Of a DNA stretch of 32,000 bases, positions 22,046 to 30,789 are shown in pieces. The notes under the pieces are model-generated. The model saw only the letters and a program-made list of their open reading frames with translations, was not told the origin of the DNA and ran no database searches. The first letter of the stretch is position 1, and every line of letters starts with the position of its first letter. Source of the stretch: Opitutia bacterium KCR 482 (GTDB lineage: Bacteria > Verrucomicrobiota > Verrucomicrobiia > Opitutales > Intestinicryptomonadaceae); NCBI GenBank assembly GCA_029269845.2, contig CP149973.1, positions 540,001 to 572,000 of the forward strand, in the 5' to 3' direction. A program made the position numbers and the translations under genes.

Positions 22046-22519
22046 CTACTCGAAGGCGGCAATTCCAGTGGGCGCATTCGATTTTATGCGGATTACGCTG
22101 AATACCGTGCCGTTTTCCGTTACGATTTTTTCGGACACAACCGAGCCGTCCTCCGACGGCAATACCGATTTTGCGATTTTTTCGTCGTGCGCCGGCATGG
22201 TGTCGACCGCAAGCTTCATCAGAGCTGCGCAGACAATCATCAGCGCCGCAACCGCCGACCATTCCAGCGCCGCGCGGACGCGGGAAGTTTTCTTTGCGGC
22301 GAAAAACGGCGAGCTTACGCCGTCGAGCGGAGCAAAAACCGCCTTTTTGCCGTAGATGGAGCACATTGCGGCATGGAGACGGCAGGACTTGTGGAAAATG
22401 TCCGCCATGCGGGGGTCGTCGCGGACGCATTTTGCGAGCAGTTCGATTTCGGCGGGAGTCGCCTCACCGTCGAGATACGACGAAACGAGTTCGTCGAATC
22501 TACCCCGCGAAATTTTCAT
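22046..22519 (-). CDS. Anti-sigma factor (single-pass membrane)
   Basis: 157 aa. Its start overlaps the sigma gene stop by 1 nt (TAATG). The N-terminus LVSSYLDGEATPAEIELLAKCVRDDPRMADIF is typical of ECF anti-sigma N-terminal domains. TM helix ALEWSAVAALMIVCAALMKLAV. Confidence 0.75.
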   Translation of the reverse strand: MKISRGRFDELVSSYLDGEATPAEIELLAKCVRDDPRMADIFHKSCRLHAAMCSIYGKKAVFAPLDGVSSPFFAAKKTSRVRAALEWSAVAALMIVCAALMKLAVDTMPAHDEKIAKSVLPSEDGSVVSEKIVTENGTVFSVIRIKSNAPTGIAAFE

Positions 22520-23115
22520 TACTTTAATTTTTCAAGTTCCTCGCGCAGATACTCGCGGGCTCTCGACAGGCGGCTCTTGACCGTGCCGACGCTCAGCCCC
22601 AGTCTGGACGCGATTTCCTCGTAGCTCAAATCCTCGGCATTGCGCAGTTTGAGAACCTCTCCGTATTTTTGAGGAAGGGCGTCAATCGCCTTGGGAAGAA
22701 GCTCGGAAAACTCGGTGAAAGCGGCGGTTTCGGCGGGGTTCTGTTCTTCGCCCTCGATGAGGTCGCAAACAGTCATGTCGCCGTCGTCGCCGACGGGAGT
22801 GTCGAGCGAAATCGACTCGCCGCGTTTGCGCCGCCACCAGTACCAGTGCTTGTTGTGGGCGAGATTTGTGGCGATATGGTAGAGCCAAGTGGAAATGGAG
22901 CAGTCTCCCCTGAAATTGCCTATGCTTTTGCGGGCGCGGATAAATGTGTCCTGCGCGACCTCCTCGGCGTCCTGCCGATTGTCGAGCAGACTGTTGGCGC
23001 GGTTGTAGATTTTATCCCAGTGGGAGTTGACCAACTCTCCGAACGCAACGTCGTCTCCGCCCTTCAAACGTTCGAGGAGGTTGTCGGAACAAGTAGATTC
23101 GGTTGTTTTTGCCAT
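22519..23115 (-). CDS. ECF-type RNA polymerase sigma-70 family factor
   Basis: 198 aa. Region 2 (DAEEVAQDTFIRARKSIGNFRG...STWLYHIATN) and region 4 HTH (LSYEEIASRLGLSVGTVKSRLSRAR). Confidence 0.9.
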   Translation of the reverse strand: MAKTTESTCSDNLLERLKGGDDVAFGELVNSHWDKIYNRANSLLDNRQDAEEVAQDTFIRARKSIGNFRGDCSISTWLYHIATNLAHNKHWYWWRRKRGESISLDTPVGDDGDMTVCDLIEGEEQNPAETAAFTEFSELLPKAIDALPQKYGEVLKLRNAEDLSYEEIASRLGLSVGTVKSRLSRAREYLREELEKLK

Positions 23116-23168: not shown

Positions 23169-23314
23169 AAAAAAACTTGAATTTTCGCAACGAGCCGCGC
23201 GCGAAACGCGCCGTTATCGGGATAATCGTACTTTCCCGCGCGGACTCAACTTTTTTTTTCGAAAAAAAACTCCGACCGACCGACAAGCCGAAACGCGCCG
23301 AAAAACGCCAAAAA

Positions 23315-25090
23315 ATGGTTGCCAAAAGGGAGACATCAATTAAGAATACGATAAAAGAATATATGTTTGGATTTGGACTACACAAAAAAAACCGCCGCAA
23401 ACTCGCGCTGATAGACTGCGCGGACGCGTCGGTAAGCGAAACATCGCACTTCCCCGCCACGCTCGGAGGCTCCAACGACCCGCTGAAAACGGGCTTTCCC
23501 TTCCCGTTTCTCGAAGTCTCCGAAACGAAGGGCGGAAAACTTCTGCTCACGCCGACCGACCCCACCGCCGACGTGAAAATCAACGGCACCAAAATCTCCG
23601 AACCCGTGGAGCTTTCGGGAGCTGCTACAATGCAGCTCGGCGAGCGCCTCTTCTACCTTTCCGACGACCCCAAAACCATCGAAAAGGCGCGGAACATGGA
23701 CGTCTCGAAATGGCTTGTCTTCTACGCCGAAACGGGGCGGATAGAAGACGAAGTGCCGTTCGCGCGGCTGAAACAGTCGGTGCTCGGACGCGGGCTTAGC
23801 GGCGCGGGAATAGCAATCTGCCCGAAGGGCTTTGAGCTTGGCTTCATGTTCTCTTCGGTGTTCGGCGACGGCTCGGATTCCGACGCGACAGTGCCGATTC
23901 TCTCGGAAAATTCGGAGGCAATAACGTGCCCGCTCTGCTGGCTGAAATTCGACGTCGGCGACGCCATGAGCATAGCGGTTCACGAGAGCCTGCGCGGAGA
24001 TCCCGTGCTTGGGCAGGACGAAATGCTGCGCTTTCTGCCGACATCTTTCACGGAGGACGGCGTGGCAATCGACCCCGCGGGAATGCCCGCCCCCGACGTC
24101 GCATGCCCGCACTGCCGCAGAAAGCTTCCGCCGAACTACCTTGAACTCGACCGCCGCATATTCTCGATAGTGGGCGCGCCGAGCGCGGGGAAGTCGTACT
24201 ACCTGAGCGCGCTAATAAGCATGCTGCAAGGCTCGCTCTACAAAAATTTCGGCATTGTGCTCAAAGACCTCGACCCGTCGGGAAACATGCTGCTTACGCA
24301 AATGAAAAACAGCCTGTTTTCGGCAAAACGCCCCGAAGACGCGATTCTCGCAAAAACCGCGCTCGAAGGGAAGATGTACGAACGCTACCCGCGCTTCGGA
24401 AAAATAGTCGCGCTGCCCAAACCCATGACGTACTCGCTCTCGCGCGACGGCGCGGAGGGAACTTCGATAATTTTCTACGACAACGCGGGCGAACACTTCG
24501 AACCGGGGCTTGACATAGAGGAGTCGCCTGGGGCAATGCACGTGGCAAGCTCGTCGGGAATATTCTTCCTTTTCGACCCCGCCGCAAACCGCAACTTCAA
24601 GGCGGCTCTCGGCGACTATCCCGACCCGCAGCTTTCAATCGACGGACGGCTCGACCAGCAGGACACCATTTTGTCGGAAATGGAAATCCGCATAAAAAGA
24701 ATACTCGCGATTGAGCCTCTGAAAAAAATAGACACGCCGCTTGCGATTCTCATCGGCAAGTGCGACATGTGGAAACACCTGCTGAAAACGCCGCTCGCGG
24801 AGCCGATTTCCGACGGGAGGCTCGACCTCGCCGCGGTTGACTCCAACAGCGGAATTTTGCGCGACTTCCTCGCGGAAATAGACCCCACGATTCCAGCAAG
24901 CGCGGAGTCGATTTCAAGCAACATAAGGTATTTCGCCGTAAGCGCGCTGGGGCACTCGCCGCAAATGCTTCTCGACGGCGAATGCGCGGGGAAAATCGCG
25001 CCGATTCCCTCGAAAATCAAGCCGATAGACGCGGAAATTCCCGCAATCTGGCTGCTGTCGCAATCGACAAAACTCATTCCGACAAAATAG
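23315..25090 (+). CDS. FHA-like / split Zn-ribbon / P-loop GTPase fusion protein (uncharacterised)
   Basis: 591 aa from ATG 23315 (alternative ATG 23363; the track start 23132 is a TTG extension). G1 GAPSAGKS (24173-24196), G3 DNAGE (24479-24493), G4 GKCD (24755-24766), G5 SAL. Cysteine pairs CPLC...CPHC lie at 23927-24115. An FHA-like segment lies at about 23402-23665. Confidence 0.8.
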   Translation: MVAKRETSIKNTIKEYMFGFGLHKKNRRKLALIDCADASVSETSHFPATLGGSNDPLKTGFPFPFLEVSETKGGKLLLTPTDPTADVKINGTKISEPVELSGAATMQLGERLFYLSDDPKTIEKARNMDVSKWLVFYAETGRIEDEVPFARLKQSVLGRGLSGAGIAICPKGFELGFMFSSVFGDGSDSDATVPILSENSEAITCPLCWLKFDVGDAMSIAVHESLRGDPVLGQDEMLRFLPTSFTEDGVAIDPAGMPAPDVACPHCRRKLPPNYLELDRRIFSIVGAPSAGKSYYLSALISMLQGSLYKNFGIVLKDLDPSGNMLLTQMKNSLFSAKRPEDAILAKTALEGKMYERYPRFGKIVALPKPMTYSLSRDGAEGTSIIFYDNAGEHFEPGLDIEESPGAMHVASSSGIFFLFDPAANRNFKAALGDYPDPQLSIDGRLDQQDTILSEMEIRIKRILAIEPLKKIDTPLAILIGKCDMWKHLLKTPLAEPISDGRLDLAAVDSNSGILRDFLAEIDPTIPASAESISSNIRYFAVSALGHSPQMLLDGECAGKIAPIPSKIKPIDAEIPAIWLLSQSTKLIPTK

Positions 25091-25094
25091 CGAA

Positions 25095-26408
25095 ATGGCA
25101 TACCAACTCATTTACACAAGCGCGCCGGCGTCGCTCACACTGGGCAGAACGGGTTTTTCGACCGTCGCCCGCACGCGCGACATGCCCGAAAAACTCGCCG
25201 CCGCCGTCGAAAGGTGCGGAGTCTACGAAATAGGCTCCGGCGAAGTGTTCTCGCACAAAACCCTGCAATACGGCGGACAGACATGGCATATCCTCACGCG
25301 CATGCGCGACGCGGGGACGGACTACACAAACAGAAACAACTACGTCGCCCACCACATCGCGATTCCGCAAAGCGACATCGGCGGACTCGCAAATCCCGCC
25401 GAAATTCTGGCGCAGTGGAGCGGCTGGGTGTCGAAATGGAGCGGCGACCCGCGCTACGTCGGCGAAGTTTTCGGGCTTGAAAACATCAAGGCTAAAAACT
25501 CCCTGCCCGCAAAAAACTGGGAAAAATATTTCGGCAACCCCGCAAAGGCCGCGCTGCTTTCGAACTGCCCCGCGCAGATTTCGGCGTCGCCCGACGACGC
25601 GCGGACGCTGCTCGACCTCTTCTCCGAAAGCCTGCTGCTCAACGCCAACCCCGCCGACGCGTGGGACATCACGTTCACGACGTCGATGGCGTCGGGGGAA
25701 AACCCGAACGCGTTTCTCTGGAAGACCGACACGTCGGGAAACGCCGCGGCGATAAACCTTTCCGCAAAAACCGCGCCCGCCGCGCCCGACAATCGCGCCG
25801 CGAAATACGCGCTCACGGGCGAAAAAAACAACCGCGAACGCTACAATCTGAAAGTCGGCGCGCCGAAGGCGGTAGTCCGCTACGATGTGGTGGAAACGCA
25901 AAAGGGCGGCTCGAAAAACGCGCCAATCTACGGAATTTCGGCGGCGATAACGATTGGGGCAATCGCGGCGGCGGCGTTTGCGCTCATGCCCGAACGCGAA
26001 AAAACGCGCAGTTCCGACACAGAACAGCGCGAACTTCCCGTGCTTGCAAGCGCAGCCGAAACGCCGACAGGCGCGGAGGAAGAACCCGCAAAAAAGTCGC
26101 TCGCCCAGACGGCGGGGGAAGTGAGGGAAAAAATCGCCTCCGACGACTTTGCGGGGGCTTTGGAAATCTGGAAAAATTCGGGCTACTCCGAAAAAAACCC
26201 GTCGCTTGAACGCGACATTTTGGAGGACATCGGAACGCGGGCGGACTCCCTCATGCGCCGCGCCGAAAACCTGCTGACCGTCGGAACTCCGCAGACCCGC
26301 GCCGACGCCGCAAAACTGCTCGCCGCCGCGCGGCTTGCCCTCGACATTCCCGACATTCCCAAGCGCGAAACGCGCGAAACAAAATGGAAGGCTTTGAAAC
26401 AAAAATGA
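25095..26408 (+). CDS. Single-pass membrane protein with a GAP1-N2-like (GTPase-associated protein 1) N-terminal domain
   Basis: 437 aa starting 4 nt after the GTPase stop. N-terminus MAYQLIYTSAPASLTLGRTGFSTVARTRDMP...GTDYTNRNNYVAHHIAIP. TM helix at aa 277-299 (25923-25991), then a helical C-terminal tail. Confidence 0.75.
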   Translation: MAYQLIYTSAPASLTLGRTGFSTVARTRDMPEKLAAAVERCGVYEIGSGEVFSHKTLQYGGQTWHILTRMRDAGTDYTNRNNYVAHHIAIPQSDIGGLANPAEILAQWSGWVSKWSGDPRYVGEVFGLENIKAKNSLPAKNWEKYFGNPAKAALLSNCPAQISASPDDARTLLDLFSESLLLNANPADAWDITFTTSMASGENPNAFLWKTDTSGNAAAINLSAKTAPAAPDNRAAKYALTGEKNNRERYNLKVGAPKAVVRYDVVETQKGGSKNAPIYGISAAITIGAIAAAAFALMPEREKTRSSDTEQRELPVLASAAETPTGAEEEPAKKSLAQTAGEVREKIASDDFAGALEIWKNSGYSEKNPSLERDILEDIGTRADSLMRRAENLLTVGTPQTRADAAKLLAAARLALDIPDIPKRETRETKWKALKQK

Positions 26409-29167
26409 CGCCGCAACTTCTGACAGTAAAAATTCAGGCAATTCTCGGCGGGCGGTCGAACGCCTCCGACATGCAAAAACGCTCCGTCGCAACCGAATAC
26501 TACAAGCTGTGCGCCCAGACGGAATCGCAGCTGGAACACTGCGTCGCGCTAATCAAGGCGGGGCGCGACTACACCGCATTGCAGGTCGCCGAATCGTCCG
26601 ACCTGCTCGACACGCTCAACGCCCTGCTCTTCCCCGAAATCGAACAGTGGCGGGCGTTCTGCGACGGCGCAAACCTGCCCGTTCCGCCGCCGTTCGACGA
26701 CGCGCAAATAGAGCTTGTGAACTCGCTGTACTCGCGCGGAATTTCGCAAAACCACCCTCTCTACCGCGACTTCCGCAGGGCGATGCGCATGCGCAGATAC
26801 GAGGACGCGCTCGCGGTAATCAAAACGATTTCAAAAATCAACGCCTACGATGCCGAGGCGCGGCGCGAGTGCGAAAAGCTGTCCAGACGCGTCGCGTCGG
26901 CAAAGCTCGCGCAGCTCGAACGCGCGGTCGCGTCGGACGACTTCGCCGAAGCGTCTAAAATACGCGACGCCCTCGCGCCCGAAGCGGCCACGCTCTCCGA
27001 CAACAAAATCTGGCGCAACGCCGAACTCTACCTGCGCTCCCACACGGAGGAAGCCGAGCGCAAACGCTGCGCCGAAATCGTCGCCGAGCTTGAAAAACTC
27101 GACGTCGAGCGCGACTTCGCCGCCGCCGCCGACCTCGTGAACGAATTCAACCTCCTGCGCGGCGACGCCGACTTCGACGGAACGGAATTCGTCGAAAGAA
27201 TCTCCGCCGAAACCGCGAAAAAGCAGGACGCCGCGATTGCCGCCGCAAAGGCTGCGCGGGCGGCAAACCTCGCGCGGGCGGAGCTTGAAAAGCCCGACAA
27301 ATCGGAAAAACGCGCCGAAAGACTCGCGCGGCTGACAGCCCTAAAAGCGGAGGCGGCGGACGCGCTCGACGCGGAGGCGGCTAAGAGGCTCTCCTCCGAA
27401 ATCTCGAAGCTCCGCGCGGCGGCAGCGCTCGCAAAACTCGCCCTCGCGGCGGCTGTTTGCGCGGGAATAGCGGCAGTCGGCGCGGGCGCGTATTTCGCGT
27501 GGAGCTACGAAACCGCGCGGCAAAACGAAATCGCCGCCGAAAACGAAATCGCGGAAATGGAGAATCTGCGCGAGCCGTCGCACCTGCCGAAAAAAATCGC
27601 GGAGTTCGAAAGAAAATACCCGTCGAAAAAATACGCCGAAAGGCTCGCGGCATTGGCGGACTCCGCGAAAATCGCGGCAAACAGACTCGCGCGGGTAAAG
27701 GAGGCCGTGCGATCGCTCGAAAAGTTCGACCCAAAAACCGCAAAACCCGCCGACTTCGAAAAGGCGAAAAATCTGGTCGAGGAACTGCGCCTCGAAGCGG
27801 CGTCGCTCTCGCCCGTCGAGCAGTCGGTATACCGCGGAATAATCGACTCCTCGGGCAAAAGGATTTCAGCCGCAGCCGAGGAACGCAGGGCGAAAAACGC
27901 CGCCGACCTCAGGAAATACCTTGCCCAATACGAAGCCGTCGCCGAAGAGTACGAAAACTTCGCGCGGGCAAAGGCGGACATCGACCGCGACGCCGACGCC
28001 GTTCTGGAAAAGCTCCGCCCGCTCGTGGGCGAAGTGTCGGCAACGTTCAGACCGCACAGACTCGATTCCGAAAAATTCGACGAAATTTCGGTGAGGGTAG
28101 CCGACGCGAAAAACGCCTACGCGAAGTTCGACAAGCTCCGCTCCGCCCTGCTTACGTCGCAGAGCGCGGCGGAATACGCGGCGTCGCTCGAAAGCCTTGC
28201 GGAATCGGGCGCGGCGCCCGCGGAATTTTCGCGCAAGCTCTCGAAAATCGCGGAGGTAAAGGACGCCATTCTGCGCGGGCAAACGGCGGAATTCGGAACG
28301 CCCGAAGCCGCCGCGCGGCTCGACTCGGCGGGAATCGCCGCAAAGGCGTCCCTGCCCGAAAACGAAATGCTCACAAACCTCTACAAATACTCGCGCGAGG
28401 GCAGGCTCGACGTGTACACGCTCGGGAAAATCTCGGAGAAAACCTCGAAGTGGCGCGGCGGCTCTGAGGTCGTGCAGGAGGTGCGAGAAGTGGGCGCGGG
28501 CGGGAAAATACTGACAGCCCCCTACCGCAAGCACTTCATCGACGGGCGCGCCCCGCGCGGCGTTCTGCTTGTAGGCGGCGCGAAAACGGCGGAGTCAATG
28601 CTCGCCGAAAAGGCGGCGCAAACGGCGTCAAAGCAGTCGCTGCTATCCGCGCTCTCGCTTGTGGGCAACGCGCGGACTAACCCTATTTTCCGCGCCTATC
28701 TGGAAAAGCTGATTTTCGCAAAGCTCGCGGAAAACCCCGTGGAAACGCTGCTTGAATACTCGCCGAAAGCCAGGACGCGAATGGCGGCATTGGAACGCTA
28801 CGCAAAGCCGCTCGAAGCGCATTCGTGGATTTTCGAGTCGAACTCGAAAACGCGGCTCGTGGGAAGCGAGCTCTACGGCTCGCCCGCGCCCGACTATTTC
28901 GACGACGCGCGGACGCATGTCAACGCGCTGAAAATCGCGCTCGAAAACCCGCTCGAACTCGTCGGCGTGTGCGACGAAAACGGGAAGCCCTCGATATTCA
29001 GGGAGGCGGCGGGCGCGGTGTGGTCGGTGGACGCAAAGACTGGGAAATTCGGGAAGCTCGGCAGGGGAAAGCCCGCGCCGCTTGCGCCGATTTTCCGCGA
29101 GCGCAAATCGGCGGCGGAAATCATGCGAGAAGCCTCGCAAAAAGGCGCGGGCGAAAACAACGGCTAA
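26405..29167 (+). CDS. Large (920 aa) predominantly alpha-helical single-pass membrane protein, uncharacterised
   Basis: The ATG at 26405 overlaps the upstream stop (ATGA); the track alternative is ATG 26384. Ala/Glu/Lys/Arg-rich helical sequence on both sides of a central TM (LALAAAVCAGIAAVGAGAYFAW, about 27419-27502). The last 280 aa or so look like a globular mixed alpha/beta domain. Confidence 0.75.
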   Translation: MTPQLLTVKIQAILGGRSNASDMQKRSVATEYYKLCAQTESQLEHCVALIKAGRDYTALQVAESSDLLDTLNALLFPEIEQWRAFCDGANLPVPPPFDDAQIELVNSLYSRGISQNHPLYRDFRRAMRMRRYEDALAVIKTISKINAYDAEARRECEKLSRRVASAKLAQLERAVASDDFAEASKIRDALAPEAATLSDNKIWRNAELYLRSHTEEAERKRCAEIVAELEKLDVERDFAAAADLVNEFNLLRGDADFDGTEFVERISAETAKKQDAAIAAAKAARAANLARAELEKPDKSEKRAERLARLTALKAEAADALDAEAAKRLSSEISKLRAAAALAKLALAAAVCAGIAAVGAGAYFAWSYETARQNEIAAENEIAEMENLREPSHLPKKIAEFERKYPSKKYAERLAALADSAKIAANRLARVKEAVRSLEKFDPKTAKPADFEKAKNLVEELRLEAASLSPVEQSVYRGIIDSSGKRISAAAEERRAKNAADLRKYLAQYEAVAEEYENFARAKADIDRDADAVLEKLRPLVGEVSATFRPHRLDSEKFDEISVRVADAKNAYAKFDKLRSALLTSQSAAEYAASLESLAESGAAPAEFSRKLSKIAEVKDAILRGQTAEFGTPEAAARLDSAGIAAKASLPENEMLTNLYKYSREGRLDVYTLGKISEKTSKWRGGSEVVQEVREVGAGGKILTAPYRKHFIDGRAPRGVLLVGGAKTAESMLAEKAAQTASKQSLLSALSLVGNARTNPIFRAYLEKLIFAKLAENPVETLLEYSPKARTRMAALERYAKPLEAHSWIFESNSKTRLVGSELYGSPAPDYFDDARTHVNALKIALENPLELVGVCDENGKPSIFREAAGAVWSVDAKTGKFGKLGRGKPAPLAPIFRERKSAAEIMREASQKGAGENNG

Positions 29168-29173
29168 TTCCGA

Positions 29174-29569
29174 ATGAAAAAATTTTTTCTCAGTTGGAAG
29201 GGAGCAGAAAGCGGCCCGTACTCGGCGGAGGAAATCGCCGATATGCTCGAACGCGGAAAAATCGGGCTTCTGCATCTTGTACGGACGGAATCCACACAGT
29301 GGCGGCCGCTGAAAGACGCGAACCTGCAAACCGATTTCGACGCCCCGCAAAGCGCGTCGAAAACCGACATTCTTGCGCCGATAGTCTACGCGGCGGCGGG
29401 GCTTGCGTTCCTGTCGCCGTGGGTGCTTGCGGCGTCGGGCGCGATGTCGGTGTTCTTGTGGATTTCGGGCGACAGGAAATCGGCGGCGTTTTCGTTCGCT
29501 CTGGCGGCGTTGATTGCGTGCGCGGGACTGGCGTTTTTCGGCATCGTATACCCTGCGGTGGCGGAGTGA
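29174..29569 (+). CDS. GYF_2-like domain protein with two C-terminal TM helices
   Basis: 131 aa starting 6 nt after the previous stop. FFLSWKGAESGPYSAEEIADMLERGKIGLLHLVRTESTQWRPL fits the GYF_2/DUF4339 pattern (W..G...GPys.eEi..m...G.i......v......W.pl). Two hydrophobic helices follow. Confidence 0.65.
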   Translation: MKKFFLSWKGAESGPYSAEEIADMLERGKIGLLHLVRTESTQWRPLKDANLQTDFDAPQSASKTDILAPIVYAAAGLAFLSPWVLAASGAMSVFLWISGDRKSAAFSFALAALIACAGLAFFGIVYPAVAE

Positions 29570-29623
29570 TTTTCCCGCGTAAAAAGGTTGCGAAATCCGC
29601 GCCGCTGTGGTTTCGTTATATAT

Positions 29624-30457
29624 GTGGACGATAATAAGAAAATCCTGTTCGTAGTGAACAAAACGAAAACTTCGGCGGAGGAAATCGCCGAAAAGCTTTC
29701 GAAACTCGCACTCGCAAACGGAATGTCGTGCGAAATCTGCGCCGACTTCCCCGTGCCCGAAAGCGCGTTCAAAGACAAGGACATCTGCTGCGTCATCGGC
29801 GGCGACGGCACAATACTCTCGTGCGTGCCCGCAATCGCAAAGTACGACCTCCCCGTCTTCGGCATAAACCTCGGCAAGCTCGGATTTTTGGCGACGTACA
29901 CCGACGAAATTTCCGAGGCGGAATTCCTTTCGCTCGTGCGCGGGGAACGCCGCGTGCTCGAACGCGCATTGCTCGAAGTAGTCTACAACGGCAGAAGATA
30001 CCTTGCGCTCAACGACCTCGTTTTCAAGGACGTCAGGCTCGACGGAATCTCGAAGTTCGCGATTTTCGCAGACAAGGAGTTCATCGCAACCTATGCGGGC
30101 GACGGTCTGATTTTTTCGACGCCCACGGGTTCGACCGCATACAACCTTTCGGCGGGCGGCCCGATTATCCACCCCAAGGGAAGGGTTTTCGCGATGACGC
30201 CCATCTGCCCCCACACGCTCTCGAACAGAAGCCTCATCTACGACTACGGCGCGCAGATAAAAATCGAATGCGTAAGCGGCGAAAGCGCGCTAATCGCCGA
30301 CGGCAAAAAAGTGGCAACCCTCACGCAGGGCTCGTCGGTGGAAATCAGCATGCCGTCGAACACGATACGCTTCGTGCGCCTGCGCGGGCACTCGCATTTC
30401 GCGATTTTAAGAAGCAAGCTCGGCTGGGCGGAAGACCCCCGAAAGTACGAAAGATGA
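29624..30457 (+). CDS. nadK: NAD kinase
   Basis: GGDGT, NLGKLGFL and DGLIFSTPTGSTAYNLSAGGPI motifs. I prefer the in-frame GTG at 29624 (MDDNKKILFVV..., 277 aa) over the track's TTG at 29588. The start is uncertain. Confidence 0.85.
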   Translation: MDDNKKILFVVNKTKTSAEEIAEKLSKLALANGMSCEICADFPVPESAFKDKDICCVIGGDGTILSCVPAIAKYDLPVFGINLGKLGFLATYTDEISEAEFLSLVRGERRVLERALLEVVYNGRRYLALNDLVFKDVRLDGISKFAIFADKEFIATYAGDGLIFSTPTGSTAYNLSAGGPIIHPKGRVFAMTPICPHTLSNRSLIYDYGAQIKIECVSGESALIADGKKVATLTQGSSVEISMPSNTIRFVRLRGHSHFAILRSKLGWAEDPRKYER

Positions 30458-30789
30458 ACAGGGACGCAACCGACACTGCTAAACGCAAACGCACGGCGAT
30501 ACGCCTTGCGTTTGCGGCGGCGTTCGCGCTCGAAGCCGCATGGCTTTTCTTTGCGGACTTCGGGTCGGACATTCCGTGCTTTGCGTCGCAAATCTCGGCG
30601 GGAATAGACGCGCTAATCGCCGCCGCGCTCGCGGCGGGCTTCCGCCCGTCGAACTTCGCGGTTTTCAAAACGTTCGCGTTCGCGGGATTTTTCGCGTACG
30701 CGTGGTACTCGCTGGGAACTTCGCCCGAATGCGCGGCGGCGGCGGCAGTCTCGGCGGCATTGGGGCTTGCGGTCTACACAATTTTATAA
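30454..30789 (+). CDS. Small hydrophobic membrane protein, uncharacterised
   Basis: 111 aa. The ATG at 30454 overlaps the nadK stop (ATGA). It is the downstream in-frame part of track ORF 29728..30789. Three or four Ala-rich hydrophobic segments. Confidence 0.5.
   Translation: MNRDATDTAKRKRTAIRLAFAAAFALEAAWLFFADFGSDIPCFASQISAGIDALIAAALAAGFRPSNFAVFKTFAFAGFFAYAWYSLGTSPECAAAAAVSAALGLAVYTIL

What the first reader, a model, noticed from the sequence alone, without database searches (positions are those of the whole stretch)
23315..25090. Unusual domain fusion: degenerate FHA-like module, GYF-like segment, split four-Cys ribbon and a GTPase with a long G1-G3 insert
The full G-motif set is visible directly in the translation. 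G1 is GAPSAGKS, G3 is IIFYDNAGE (hhhhDxxG), G4 is LIGKCD (an xKxD variant of NKxD, consistent with guanine specificity), and G5 is VSALG. G1 and G3 are about 95 residues apart, far more than in Ras-like GTPases, which implies a large switch-I insert. Immediately upstream, CPLC (aa 266-269 in track-ORF numbering) and CPHC (aa 325-328) form a split Zn-ribbon-like four-Cys set. Further N-terminal, LLLTPTDPTADVKINGTKISEPVELSGAATMQLGERLFYL follows the C-terminal half of the FHA pattern (D..S.NGT.vNG..i....L..G..i.lG...f), but the canonical phosphothreonine-binding Arg, Ser and His positions are not evident. KWLVFYAETGRIEDEVPFARLKQSVL weakly resembles a GYF_2 motif, echoing the standalone GYF-like gene at the end of the operon. 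I do not recognise this combination as a described architecture.
Basis: partly seen in the sequence, partly recalled or inferred. Interest (0 to 1): 0.75.

Follow-up and report, generated by a model that had tools for sequence, protein, structure and literature searches.

The report
DO-GTPase2 switch with relic FHA/GYF domains

Summary
The ORF is real, although it starts at 23363, not 23315, which lies inside a conserved promoter. G1, G3, G4 and G5 and all four Cys are invariant or nearly so down to 30% identity, and a G2 Thr (T332) is also conserved. An AlphaFold2 model (pLDDT 88) gives a TRAFAC-like GTPase, a beta-sandwich that matches the Ki67 FHA domain, and a small domain whose best PDB matches are GYF domains, though those matches are not significant.

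The novelty claim does not hold. The zinc ribbon plus GTPase core, with its Walker-B Glu, is DO-GTPase2 (PF19993). The next gene is GAP1-N2 (70 bits). This is the "GTPase-centric" system of Kaur et al. 2020, which they reported in verrucomicrobia.

Among 150 representative relatives, 22 carry a Pfam FHA domain and 31 carry GYF_2. Nine inspected relatives have a canonical FHA–GYF_2–ZnR–GTPase order. A profile-profile alignment joins the query's N-terminus to those nine (97.9%, E 5e-13). In the query the phosphothreonine-binding residues are lost.

In Opitutales the operon is chromosomal and syntenic. It lies next to an ECF sigma factor and lacks the usual FNIII partner and any recognisable effector.

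Verdict: a new variant of a known, experimentally untested family. Interest is moderate to low.

The parts
23319..23347 (+). Sigma-70-like promoter of the operon: -35 TTGCCA, 17-nt spacer, -10 AAGAAT, preceded by an A-tract.
   Evidence: Consensus scan. The A-tract + TTGC(C/A) element is conserved about 45-50 nt upstream of the start codon in many related loci. Function is inferred, not shown.
23363..25090 (+). CDS of the 575-aa FHA-like / GYF-like / Zn-ribbon / DO-GTPase2 protein, with the start corrected
   Evidence: 1219 word-index homologues and 1383 representative clusters were found.
23402..23662 (+). Degenerate FHA-like beta-sandwich (aa 14-100). The phosphothreonine-binding Arg/Ser/His are replaced by G36/P46/F49. 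This is the fastest-evolving part of the protein (31% pairwise identity among close homologues).
   Evidence: The AlphaFold2 model is all-beta here, pLDDT 82-91. Foldseek matches Ki67 FHA 1r21, E 2e-4, TMt 0.70. The aligned regions of homologues P0195 and P0178 pass the Pfam FHA threshold. hhalign to canonical FHA-GYF_2 relatives gives 97.9%, E 4.8e-13.
23669..23863 (+). GYF-like small alpha/beta domain (aa 103-167) with invariant W117 and near-invariant G160-F161. It is probably a degenerate GYF_2.
   Evidence: Domain model pLDDT 89. The top PDB Foldseek hits are GYF domains of GIGYF1/2 and Smy2, but E is 0.56-2.7. The only Pfam hit on this region in 10 homologues is GYF_2, E 0.067. The collinear hhalign covers W117 and the G..P segment. 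31 of 150 relatives carry a bona fide GYF_2.
23918..24130 (+). Zinc-ribbon module (aa 186-256). Knuckles are CPLC (23927-23938) and CPHC (24104-24115), separated by a 55-aa insert. This is the most conserved segment of the protein (83% identity among close homologues).
   Evidence: The four Cys are invariant. CxxC-(59 aa)-CxxC followed 23 aa later by Walker A is fixed across the family. Both knuckles sit at beta-hairpin turns in the model. Zinc binding is inferred.
24149..25066 (+). TRAFAC-type GTPase domain (aa 263-568). G1 24173-24196; conserved KDLDPSGN motif 24263-24286; G2 K331-T332 within 24347-24370; G3 DNAGE within 24467-24493; G4 GKCD within 24749-24766; G5 VSALG 24938-24952.
   Evidence: Model pLDDT is mostly above 90. 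Foldseek top hits are EF-Tu, eEF1A, atlastin, RNF112, MRAS, RhoA, G-alpha and Der, E 1e-5 to 2e-4. Pfam DO-GTPase2 gives E 2.7e-4 for the query and hits 108 of 150 relatives.
25095..26408 (+). GAP1 (GTPase-associated protein 1), N2 type, 437 aa, with one predicted TM helix at aa 280-298. It starts 4 nt after the GTPase stop codon.
   Evidence: Pfam GAP1-N2 E 2.2e-19, 70.3 bits against a cut-off of 24. TM prediction. Present next to the GTPase in 74 of 80 related loci.
26384..29167 (+). Third component: a 927-aa, largely helical protein with one TM helix (aa 347-365) and no known family. It occupies the position where GAP1-N2 systems usually have an FNIII-repeat protein.
   Evidence: No Pfam, NCBIfam, PADLOC or PDB match. 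40 homologues were found, none with a Pfam domain. Its N-terminal ~120 aa is homologous to the 987-aa third gene of a distant FHA+GYF_2 DO-GTPase operon (E 7e-7). Present in 63 of 80 loci.
29174..29569 (+). Last gene of the operon: a 131-aa protein with an N-terminal GYF_2 domain and two C-terminal TM helices
   Evidence: Pfam GYF_2 E 5.8e-5, 23.2 bits, just below the cut-off of 25.8. An 88%-identical homologue carries a precomputed PF14237 hit. Conserved architecture across loci. TM prediction.
22046..23115 (-). Divergently transcribed ECF sigma factor (22519-23115) and a putative anti-sigma factor (22046-22519). They are conserved neighbours; whether they are functionally linked is unknown.
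   Evidence: Pfam Sigma70_r2, r4_2 and Sigma70_ECF. Weak zf-HC2 hit, E 0.054. The sigma gene is adjacent and divergent in 63 of 80 loci.

Best explanation
The gene encodes a soluble GTP-binding switch of the DO-GTPase2 family. It is the first gene of a four-gene GAP1-N2-type 'GTPase-centric' operon.

Shown here:
- The C-terminal 300 residues fold as a TRAFAC GTPase with conserved G1, G2 (T332), G3 (DxxGE), G4 ([G/N]KxD, which implies guanine specificity) and G5.
- A four-Cys zinc ribbon with a very highly conserved 55-aa insert is an integral, fixed-spacing part of the family core.
- The N-terminal 170 residues are homologous to the FHA-GYF_2 tandem that is canonical in distant family members. 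In this clade they have lost the phosphothreonine-contacting residues and most GYF signature residues.
- The three downstream proteins are all membrane-anchored.

Inferred:
- GTP binding, possibly with dimerisation, and hydrolysis assisted by E377 (which sits at the Ras Q61 position) toggles the protein's association with the cytoplasmic GAP1-N2 domain. Through it the GTPase connects to a membrane complex of GAP1, the 927-aa protein and the GYF_2-2TM protein.
- The degenerate FHA-like and GYF-like modules no longer read phospho- or proline-rich peptides. They serve as clade-specific docking surfaces. The FHA-like part evolves as fast as the partner proteins.

Biological role. The locus is chromosomal, sits in a core-genome neighbourhood across Opitutales, lies next to an ECF sigma/anti-sigma pair and has no recognisable toxin domain. 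I therefore lean, with modest confidence, towards a resident membrane- or envelope-associated signalling function in this clade. The alternative is an invader-triggered suicide system. That conflict role, proposed for the family as a whole, is not excluded.
For: Family identity:
- Pfam DO-GTPase2 E 2.7e-4 for the query, and hits in 27/32 and 108/150 relatives.
- The downstream gene scores 70 bits on GAP1-N2.
- The Walker-B Glu, N-terminal zinc ribbon, TRAFAC class and occurrence in verrucomicrobia all match the description in PMC7159879.

Fold:
- AlphaFold2 pLDDT 88.4.
- Foldseek hits to TRAFAC GTPases and to Ki67 FHA.

Motif conservation.

FHA/GYF homology:
- Homologues pass the FHA threshold at the aligned position.
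- 22 of 150 relatives have FHA and 31 of 150 have GYF_2.
- Nine relatives have canonical FHA-GYF_2-ZnR-GTPase.
- hhalign gives 97.9%, E 4.8e-13 over 133 columns.
- GYF domains are the top structural hits for the small domain.

Membrane partners: TM predictions.

Operon and synteny:
- GTPase-GAP1-927aa-GYF is conserved. The sigma gene is adjacent in 63/80 loci. L27-L21 and NAD kinase flank the cluster in about 20-24 species.
- GTPase identity (55-82%) is comparable to NAD kinase (54-88%), while the partners are at 27-60%.
- The FHA-like module is at 31% against 83% for the ZnR.
- There are no plasmid or phage copies and no PADLOC hit.
Against: - The query itself scores 21 bits on PF19993, below the 27-bit gathering cut-off, and matches only about 50 profile positions.
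- No biochemical or genetic data exist for any member of the family. No solved structure is detectable by sequence.
- Zinc binding, GTP specificity, dimerisation and the GAP1 contact are all inferred.
- The GYF assignment is not significant for the query alone.
- The usual FNIII-repeat partner of GAP1-N2 systems is absent.
- The operon appears to have its own sigma-70-like promoter, not an ECF-type one, so the link to the sigma factor is adjacency only.
- Fast-evolving partners, and relatives fused to TIR_2, FGE-sulfatase and kinase domains, fit the conflict-system reading.
Confidence: 0.75

Rival explanations
1. It is the switch of an anti-invader (biological conflict) system, as Kaur et al. 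proposed for the family. A fast-evolving sensor (GAP1 and the 927-aa protein) detects an invader. The GTPase licenses deployment of an effector. Here the effector would be a membrane-perturbing TM protein such as the GYF_2-2TM protein or the TM part of GAP1.
For: - The family-level inference is in PMC7159879.
- Relatives of this same subfamily are fused to TIR_2 (P0167), FGE-sulfatase and protein kinase domains.
- The GTPase is constant while the partners are variable.
- All partners are membrane proteins. The paper notes SLATT pore-formers and GYF-TM proteins as components.
Against: - No recognisable effector or toxin domain is present in this operon.
- No PADLOC model matches.
- The locus is vertically syntenic in a housekeeping neighbourhood across many Opitutales species, unlike the patchy distribution of a defence island.
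- There are no plasmid or phage copies.
- No member of the family has been tested experimentally.
Confidence: 0.35
2. One reading: an undescribed, one-off domain fusion that defines a new GTPase architecture outside known families.
For: - NCBIfam, PADLOC and PDB sequence searches find nothing.
- The query is below Pfam's cut-off for DO-GTPase2.
- FHA or GYF fused to a DO-GTPase is not mentioned in the text of the 2020 paper.
Against: - The core (ZnR, DxxGE GTPase, GAP1-N2 neighbour) matches the published family feature by feature.
- 1383 representative clusters are homologous.
- FHA and GYF_2 fusions are frequent and detectable with standard Pfam models in relatives.
Confidence: 0.05
3. The FHA-like and GYF-like modules are still active peptide readers (phosphothreonine and proline-rich motifs). 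They would couple the GTPase to Ser/Thr kinase signalling, as in actinobacterial GAP1-N2 systems that carry kinases and PP2C phosphatases.
For: - Canonical FHA and GYF_2 are present in distant relatives, and one relative has a protein kinase fused.
- The paper describes a kinase/PP2C theme.
- The GYF-like module is fairly well conserved in the clade (61%).
Against: - The Arg, Ser and His of the FHA phosphothreonine pocket are replaced by G36, P46 and F49.
- The FHA-like module evolves almost as fast as the disordered linker (31% against 28%).
- There is no Pfam FHA or GYF_2 hit on the query.
- No kinase or phosphatase gene lies in the operon.
- The proline-rich linker seen after canonical GYF_2 in relatives is absent here.
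Confidence: 0.1
4. The NTPase is an ATPase or a catalytically dead pseudo-GTPase that serves only as a scaffold.
For: - The first G4 residue is Gly instead of Asn.
- There is a large G1-G3 insert.
- The profile hit to PDB is a weak match to the Grc3/Clp1 kinase P-loop plus a DLDP motif (E 0.5).
Against: - The G4 Lys and Asp are conserved in 72/72 and 71/72 sequences. G1, G2 Thr, G3 DxxGE and G5 are all near-invariant. That pattern is not expected for a dead enzyme.
- All top structural neighbours are GTPases.
Confidence: 0.05

Closest known systems
[quoted passage not shown]
   Same: - TRAFAC GTPase with a conserved Glu after the Walker-B DxxG.
- N-terminal zinc ribbon.
- GAP1-N2 gene immediately downstream.
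- Membrane-anchored partners.
- A GYF-domain/TM protein in the neighbourhood (described for planctomycetes).
- Occurrence in verrucomicrobia.
- A single GTPase copy, as in most such systems.
   Different: - The N-terminus carries a degenerate FHA-GYF_2 tandem that the paper's text does not mention for the GTPase component.
- There is only one zinc ribbon, the split one.
- The third component is a 927-aa helical single-TM protein of no known family instead of an FNIII-repeat protein.
- There is no tubulin, HSP70, kinase or recognisable effector.
- The locus is syntenic in a core-genome setting next to an ECF sigma factor.
Canonical FHA-GYF_2-ZnR-DO-GTPase2 relatives (for example P0189, P0203, P0225, P0265; locus L081)
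   Same: - Same domain order and spacing.
- Same fixed ZnR-to-Walker-A geometry.
- Same downstream GAP1 (N2+M), and a ~990-aa third protein that shares an N-terminal domain with the 927-aa protein.
   Different: - These relatives keep GR...SxxH...NG (FHA) and WYY...GP...W (GYF_2) signatures that score up to E 2e-20 and 1e-17 in Pfam. They also have proline-rich linkers after the GYF domain.
- The query clade has lost all of these.
Classical TRAFAC GTPases (EF-Tu/eEF1A, Ras-like, atlastin/GBP, Der)
   Same: - P-loop fold.
- G1-G5 in the canonical order.
- A switch-I Thr.
- They are the best structural matches to the model.
   Different: - Only 9-15% identity, and no single TRAFAC family stands out.
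- There is a ~96-residue G1-G3 segment with an extra strand, helices and a hairpin, and a conserved DLDPxGN motif.
- Glu replaces Gln or His after the G3 Gly.
- A zinc ribbon is obligatorily fused.
FHA domains (PF00498; for example Ki67, YscD cytoplasmic domain)
   Same: Beta-sandwich fold (TM 0.70 to Ki67 FHA) and the C-terminal sequence pattern (..NG......L..G..i.lG...f).
   Different: The phosphothreonine-binding Arg, Ser and His are absent, so canonical phosphopeptide binding is unlikely.

Membership tests
DO-GTPase (DO-GTPase2, PF19993; Kaur et al. 2020) | P-loop GTPase of the TRAFAC class | tested here: met
   AlphaFold2 model pLDDT 88. Foldseek top hits are all TRAFAC GTPases, E 1e-5 to 2e-4. 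The conserved switch-I Thr T332 is kept in 72/74 sequences.
DO-GTPase (DO-GTPase2, PF19993; Kaur et al. 2020) | Conserved glutamate in the Walker B motif (DxxGE) | tested here: met
   D373-N-A-G376-E377. The Glu is conserved in 69/73 representatives. The feature is stated in PMC7159879.
DO-GTPase (DO-GTPase2, PF19993; Kaur et al. 2020) | One or two N-terminal zinc ribbons (60% of the family; usual in the GAP1-N2 type) | tested here: met
   CPLC and CPHC are invariant. Fixed spacing to Walker A across the family. Only one ribbon is present here; many relatives have a second, canonical one upstream. Metal binding was not tested.
DO-GTPase (DO-GTPase2, PF19993; Kaur et al. 2020) | Encoded next to (upstream of) a GAP1 gene of the matching subtype | tested here: met
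   The downstream gene 25095-26408 scores 70.3 bits on GAP1-N2 against a cut-off of 24. It is conserved in 74 of 80 loci.
DO-GTPase (DO-GTPase2, PF19993; Kaur et al. 2020) | Scores at or above the Pfam gathering cut-off (27 bits) on PF19993 | tested here: inconclusive
   The query scores 21.1 bits, E 2.7e-4, below the cut-off. P0141 scores 27.4 bits. Homologues at 60-79% identity carry precomputed PF19993 hits. 108 of 150 representatives hit at E below 1e-3. This is a detection threshold, not a biological feature.
GAP1-N2-type GTPase-centric system | A partner protein with rapidly evolving FNIII repeats | tested here: not met
   The 927-aa third gene has no FNIII or any other Pfam hit, and neither do its homologues. 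It does evolve fast (27-60% identity). This system is therefore a variant of the described type.
GAP1-N2-type GTPase-centric system | Variable effector component(s) with recognisable toxin or enzymatic domains | tested here: not met
   No effector domain was found in the operon by Pfam, NCBIfam or PADLOC. Only TM proteins are present.
FHA domain (PF00498) | Beta-sandwich FHA fold and profile-level homology | tested here: met
   Foldseek match to Ki67 FHA, E 2e-4, TMt 0.70, rmsd 2.8 A. Homologues P0195 (25.3 bits) and P0178 (23.1 bits) pass the cut-off of 20.7 at the aligned position. hhalign 97.9%. The query itself has no direct Pfam hit.
FHA domain (PF00498) | Phosphothreonine-binding Arg (GR), Ser and His (SxxH) | tested here: not met
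   In the hhalign alignment these positions are G36, P46 and F49 in the query. The module is therefore an FHA-fold relic, not a canonical phosphopeptide reader.
GYF_2 domain (PF14237) | Significant profile match and GYF fold | tested here: inconclusive
   No Pfam hit on the query region. The only hit among 10 homologues is GYF_2 at E 0.067. hhalign against the operon's own GYF_2 gene family gives 31.7%, P 4.9e-4. Top Foldseek hits are GYF domains but with E 0.56-2.7 and TM 0.44-0.50. The collinear hhalign to canonical FHA-GYF_2 relatives covers about two thirds of the domain, including W117.
Zinc ribbon | Two CxxC knuckles at beta-hairpin turns that coordinate one Zn | not testable with these tools
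   The sequence pattern and invariance are met, and the knuckles lie at strand-turn-strand positions in the model. Metal content needs experiment.

The most novel reading that the evidence does not exclude
In Opitutales the DO-GTPase2-GAP1 module is not an invader-triggered conflict system. It would be a vertically inherited, core-genome, membrane-associated GTP switch, possibly working alongside the adjacent ECF sigma/anti-sigma pair in envelope signalling or membrane organisation. Its FHA and GYF peptide readers would have been converted into fixed docking surfaces. A previously unrecognised ~930-aa single-TM protein family would be the obligatory third component in place of the FNIII sensor. 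This would be the first 'domesticated' housekeeping role for a family so far interpreted only as immunity.
Probability: 0.3. Interest if true: 0.55.

Novelty: new variant of a known kind. Interest (0 to 1): 0.38.

Why it matters
The DO-GTPase/GAP1 systems were predicted purely by computation in 2020 and, as far as the searchable literature shows, have never been tested. This locus adds three things.

- FHA and GYF_2 peptide-reader domains are a recurrent N-terminal attachment of DO-GTPase2, and in one order-level clade they have decayed into relics. This says something about how the switch is wired to its inputs.
- The PVC-type systems use a different, uncharacterised ~930-1000-aa membrane protein as third component.
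- In gut Opitutales the whole module behaves like a core-genome operon. The GTPase is as conserved as NAD kinase and lies beside an ECF sigma factor. This questions the blanket 'conflict system' interpretation.

Two cultured relatives carry the operon: Puniceicoccaceae Marseille-Q1082 and Intestinicryptomonas porci. The question is therefore testable, but it is a niche one.

Tried and rejected
- PADLOC and NCBIfam scans of the whole operon gave nothing relevant.
- PDB sequence searches with the single protein and with a profile gave nothing significant. The best hit was a Grc3 P-loop plus DLDP match at E 0.5.
- A homologue search for the 131-aa GYF gene returned only 2 proteins. I rebuilt its family from related loci instead. 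hhalign of that family against the GTPase's GYF-like region was weak (31.7%).
- My first synteny probe used 'orf353' (29728-30789). This turned out to be an alternative frame of the NAD kinase gene (29588-30457), and I redid the analysis with the correct gene.
- I looked for an ECF-type promoter upstream of the GTPase operon to link it to the neighbouring sigma factor. I found instead a conserved sigma-70-like promoter. The ECF-like TGAAAC-N16-CGT element faces the sigma gene itself.
- Plasmid and phage collections contain no homologue.
- The first genome scan with the 32-sequence alignment failed for lack of a conserved block. It succeeded with a closer 17-sequence alignment.
- I considered a SIMIBI/GPN-loop-like classification because of the DLDPxGN motif after helix 1. 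I rejected it because all structural neighbours are TRAFAC GTPases and a switch-I Thr is conserved.
Full report
**1. What is at the coordinates**

On that numbering:
- CPLC is at 189-192 and CPHC at 248-251.
- G1 GAPSAGKS is at 271-278.
- G3 IIFYDNAGE is at 369-377.
- G4 LIGKCD is at 463-468.
- G5 VSALG is at 526-530.

- Homologues are 574-581 aa and begin MFGF....
- The ATG at 23315 lies inside an A-tract plus TTGCC(A) -35-like element that is conserved about 45-50 nt upstream of the start codon in many related loci.

**2. Is it more than chance?**

Yes. A word-indexed search found 1219 homologues. An exhaustive HMMER scan of 1.84 billion cluster representatives found 1383 at E below 1e-3.

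In a 32-sequence alignment reaching 30% identity:
- The four Cys, G271, G276, K277 and S278 are invariant.
- D373, A375, G376, E377, K466 and D468 are at least 90% conserved.

In 75 further representatives:
- The Cys are kept in 66-71 of 68-72 sequences.
- The G4 Lys is kept in 72/72 and the G4 Asp in 71/72.
- The G5 Ser is kept in 69/71 and the G5 Gly in 70/71.

**3. Structure**

An AlphaFold2 model built on the 32-sequence alignment has mean pLDDT 88.4. It shows these segments:
- aa 14-100: an all-beta domain.
- aa 103-167: a small H-E-E-H-E-H domain.
- aa 171-183: a disordered linker.
- aa 186-256: a beta-rich segment that carries the two CPxC knuckles at hairpin turns.
- aa 263-568: a Rossmann-like NTPase domain.

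Foldseek against the PDB returns only TRAFAC GTPases at the top: EF-Tu/eEF1A, eRF3/Hbs1, atlastin, RNF112, MRAS, RhoA, ARF1, G-alpha and Der. E-values are 1e-5 to 2e-4 and identities 8-15%. The same search returns the Ki67 FHA domain for the N-terminal sandwich (E 2e-4, target TM 0.70, rmsd 2.8 A over 97 columns). No single TRAFAC family stands out.

The 96 residues between K277 and D373 contain an extra strand, two helices and a beta-hairpin. They are better conserved (78% among close homologues) than the GTPase domain as a whole (72%). They include a near-invariant KDLDPxGN motif of unknown role.

**4. What it is**

Pfam gives a sub-threshold but significant hit to DO-GTPase2 (PF19993, E 2.7e-4, 21 bits against a cut-off of 27). 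It gives a strong hit to GAP1-N2 (PF20013, 70 bits) for the gene that starts 4 nt downstream. 27 of 32 and 108 of 150 relatives hit DO-GTPase2.

These families come from Kaur, Burroughs, Iyer and Aravind (eLife 2020, PMC7159879). That paper describes 'GTPase-centric systems' with these features:
- A previously unrecognised TRAFAC GTPase family with a conserved Glu in Walker B.
- One or two N-terminal zinc ribbons in 60% of members.
- A GAP1 protein encoded downstream.
- Membrane-proximal components.
- In planctomycetes, GYF-domain proteins fused to TM regions.

The query matches point for point:
- It has DxxGE (E377).
- It has the zinc ribbon.
- It has the GAP1-N2 neighbour.
- GAP1 (TM 280-298), the 927-aa third protein (TM 347-365) and the last gene are all membrane-anchored. 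The last gene is an N-terminal GYF_2 domain plus two TM helices.

The closest genome is Opitutia bacterium UBA4654 (98% identity). Nearly all of the 80 best loci come from Opitutales, Puniceicoccales or other Verrucomicrobiota.

The CxxC-(59 aa)-CxxC unit followed 23 residues later by Walker A is a fixed feature of the whole family. Many members add a second, ordinary zinc ribbon upstream, which explains the paper's 'two ZnRs'. Its 55-aa insert is the most conserved part of the protein (83%).

**5. The FHA-like and GYF-like modules**

- The aligned N-terminal regions of homologues P0195 (25.3 bits) and P0178 (23.1 bits) pass the Pfam FHA cut-off of 20.7.
- Among the 150 representatives, 22 carry FHA (best E 2e-20) and 31 carry GYF_2 (best E 1e-17).
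- Nine representatives that I inspected have a textbook FHA (GR...SxxH...S.NGT) followed by a textbook GYF_2 (W[YF]Y...G.GP....L......G.i....lvW....W). Both lie directly upstream of the ZnR-GTPase, in the same order and spacing as in the query.
- A profile-profile alignment of the query subfamily's residues 9-172 against these nine gives 97.9% probability, E 4.8e-13, over 133 collinear columns. It spans the FHA and about two thirds of the GYF domain, including the invariant W117. With only the close (55% identity or more) Opitutales group it still gives 92%, E 6.4e-7.

In that alignment the phosphothreonine-binding Arg, Ser and His correspond to G36, P46 and F49.

For the GYF-like domain alone the evidence is weaker.
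- There is no Pfam hit on the query, and only GYF_2 at E 0.067 in one homologue.
- Local hhalign probability against the operon's own GYF_2 gene family is 31.7%.
- In a Foldseek search with a dedicated domain model (pLDDT 89), GYF domains of GIGYF1/2 and Smy2 are the top hits. However, E is 0.56-2.7 and TM is 0.44-0.50.

I conclude that both modules are degenerate descendants of an ancestral FHA-GYF_2 tandem. I hold this with high confidence for FHA and moderate confidence for GYF.

Within the clade the FHA-like module evolves nearly as fast (31% pairwise identity) as the disordered linker (28%). The GYF-like module is at 61%.

**6. Context**

The operon GTPase-GAP1-927aa-GYF_2/TM is tightly packed and ends at 29569. 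The next gene is NAD kinase.

Across the 80 related loci:
- GAP1 follows the GTPase in 74.
- The ~930-1000-aa third gene is present in 63.
- A divergent ECF sigma factor lies upstream in 63, including distant aquatic Opitutae. It usually has a putative anti-sigma gene behind it.
- In about 20-24 gut species the flanks (L27-L21 upstream, NAD kinase downstream) are also conserved.

GTPase identity to the query (55-82%) tracks that of NAD kinase (54-88%). GAP1, the third protein and the GYF/TM protein are far more divergent (27-60%).

A distant relative with canonical FHA+GYF_2 (P0189, locus L081) has the same trio. Its 987-aa third protein shares an N-terminal domain with the 927-aa protein (E 7e-7). 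That third protein has no Pfam domain in any of 40 homologues and no FNIII repeats. It therefore differs from the partner described for GAP1-N2 systems.

There is no PADLOC hit, no plasmid or phage copy and no recognisable effector domain. The rest of the window is ordinary chromosome: an MFS transporter, a GlnD-like protein, QueH, Obg, argininosuccinate lyase, PPDK and L21/L27.

**7. How it most likely works**

Shown:
- The fold.
- The complete, conserved G-motif set, with [G/N]KxD arguing for guanine.
- The integral four-Cys module.
- Homology of the N-terminus to FHA-GYF_2, with loss of the ligand-contacting residues.
- Membrane anchoring of all three partners.

Inferred:
- The protein is a GTP-gated switch. 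E377, at the Ras Q61 position, is likely to assist hydrolysis.
- It binds the cytoplasmic GAP1-N2 domain and thereby controls a membrane complex.
- The relic FHA and GYF modules act as clade-specific docking surfaces, with the FHA-like part co-varying with the fast-evolving partners.

On the biological role I lean modestly towards a resident membrane or envelope signalling function in this clade. The reasons are the core-genome synteny, housekeeping-level conservation of the GTPase, absence of an effector and absence of mobile copies.

The family-level conflict-system hypothesis remains a serious rival (about 0.35). Relatives in the same subfamily are fused to TIR_2, FGE-sulfatase and kinase domains, and the partners evolve fast.

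The sigma-factor link is adjacency only. The operon has its own conserved sigma-70-like promoter. The ECF-type TGAAAC-N16-CGT element faces the sigma gene.

**8. Novelty and verdict**

The core architecture and the system were published in 2020 and have Pfam models. No experimental follow-up was found in the searchable literature. One preprint merely cites the family as predicted to act in membrane stress.

The following are not in that paper's text, although its figures and source data could not be read:
- The FHA-GYF_2 attachment to the GTPase, and its decay in Opitutales.
- The non-FNIII third component.
- The core-genome, sigma-adjacent setting.

This is a new variant of a known kind. I score interest at about 0.38.

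Noticed in passing
window 23305-23347 (+): An A-tract followed by TTGCC(A), and about 17 nt later an A/T-rich -10-like hexamer, is conserved upstream of the GTPase start in many Opitutales loci. It is probably the operon's sigma-70-type promoter with an UP-like element.
   Followed up: partly
window 23169-23145 (-): The only TGAAAC-N16-CGT match in the window (an ECF/sigma-W-like promoter pattern) lies 30-55 nt upstream of the ECF sigma gene on its own strand. A related AACGTTTCAAAA motif recurs in other loci. This suggests an autoregulated ECF promoter. By count alone it is not significant (about 1.2 expected).
   Followed up: partly
window 22046-23115 (-), and 63 of 80 related loci: An ECF sigma factor, usually with a small putative anti-sigma gene (weak zf-HC2 hit), is divergently adjacent to the DO-GTPase operon even in distant aquatic Opitutae at 45-50% GTPase identity. 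The reason for this deep conservation of adjacency is unexplained.
   Followed up: partly
window 26384-29167 (+); L081 8816-11779; L045 14156-17146; L075 14746-17754: The third operon gene encodes a ~930-1000-aa, largely helical single-TM protein with no Pfam, NCBIfam or PDB match in any homologue. Its N-terminal ~120 aa is conserved between distant systems. It looks like an undescribed conserved third component of PVC-type GAP1-N2 systems, replacing the FNIII protein.
   Followed up: partly
window 24263-24286 (aa 301-308, KDLDPSGN): A near-invariant D-x-D-P-x-G-N motif follows a short strand directly after the P-loop helix, inside the G1-G3 insert. The only profile hit in the PDB (E 0.5) is the P-loop plus 'DLDPG' segment of the Grc3/Clp1 polynucleotide kinase. 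Its role (nucleotide contact or dimer contact) is unknown.
   Followed up: no
related loci L001-L040 against the window: There is a sharp rate split inside one operon. The GTPase is as conserved as NAD kinase (for example 72% against 62% in L006), while GAP1, the 927-aa protein and the GYF/TM protein are at 40-45%. Within the GTPase, the FHA-like module (31%) is far more variable than the ZnR (83%).
   Followed up: yes
proteins P0167, P0169, P0132, and members of alignments A4 and A5: Relatives show other fusions. P0167 has TIR_2 in front of the FHA-like/GYF-like/ZnR/GTPase. P0169 has a fully canonical FHA domain inserted inside the GTPase domain shortly after G4. P0132 has extra N-terminal zinc ribbons. 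Other representatives carry an N-terminal protein kinase, FGE-sulfatase domains, or a direct GAP1-N2/GAP1-M fusion.
   Followed up: partly
proteins P0189, P0203, P0254, P0241 (N-termini): In relatives with a canonical GYF_2 domain, the linker between GYF_2 and the zinc ribbon is strongly proline-rich (for example PLPPGPGAAPRP...PAPAPAPQPQP). It could be an intramolecular ligand of the GYF domain. The query's linker (GDGSDSDATVPILSENSE) is not proline-rich, in step with its degenerate GYF.
   Followed up: no
window 29588-30457 (+) against 29728-30789 (+): The 353-aa ORF 29728-30789 is an alternative frame that overlaps the real NAD kinase gene (Pfam NAD_kinase + NAD_kinase_C). Even so, it gave 30-60% tblastn matches in related loci. 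This is a reminder that long alternative-frame ORFs in this ~58% GC genome can look conserved.
   Followed up: yes
window 23244-23275: There is a T9-CG-A8 palindrome (TTTTTTTTTCGAAAAAAAA) in the divergent intergenic region between the sigma gene and the GTPase operon. The terminator scan flags a weak stem plus T-run on the minus strand nearby (23294-23269). Its function is unknown.
   Followed up: no
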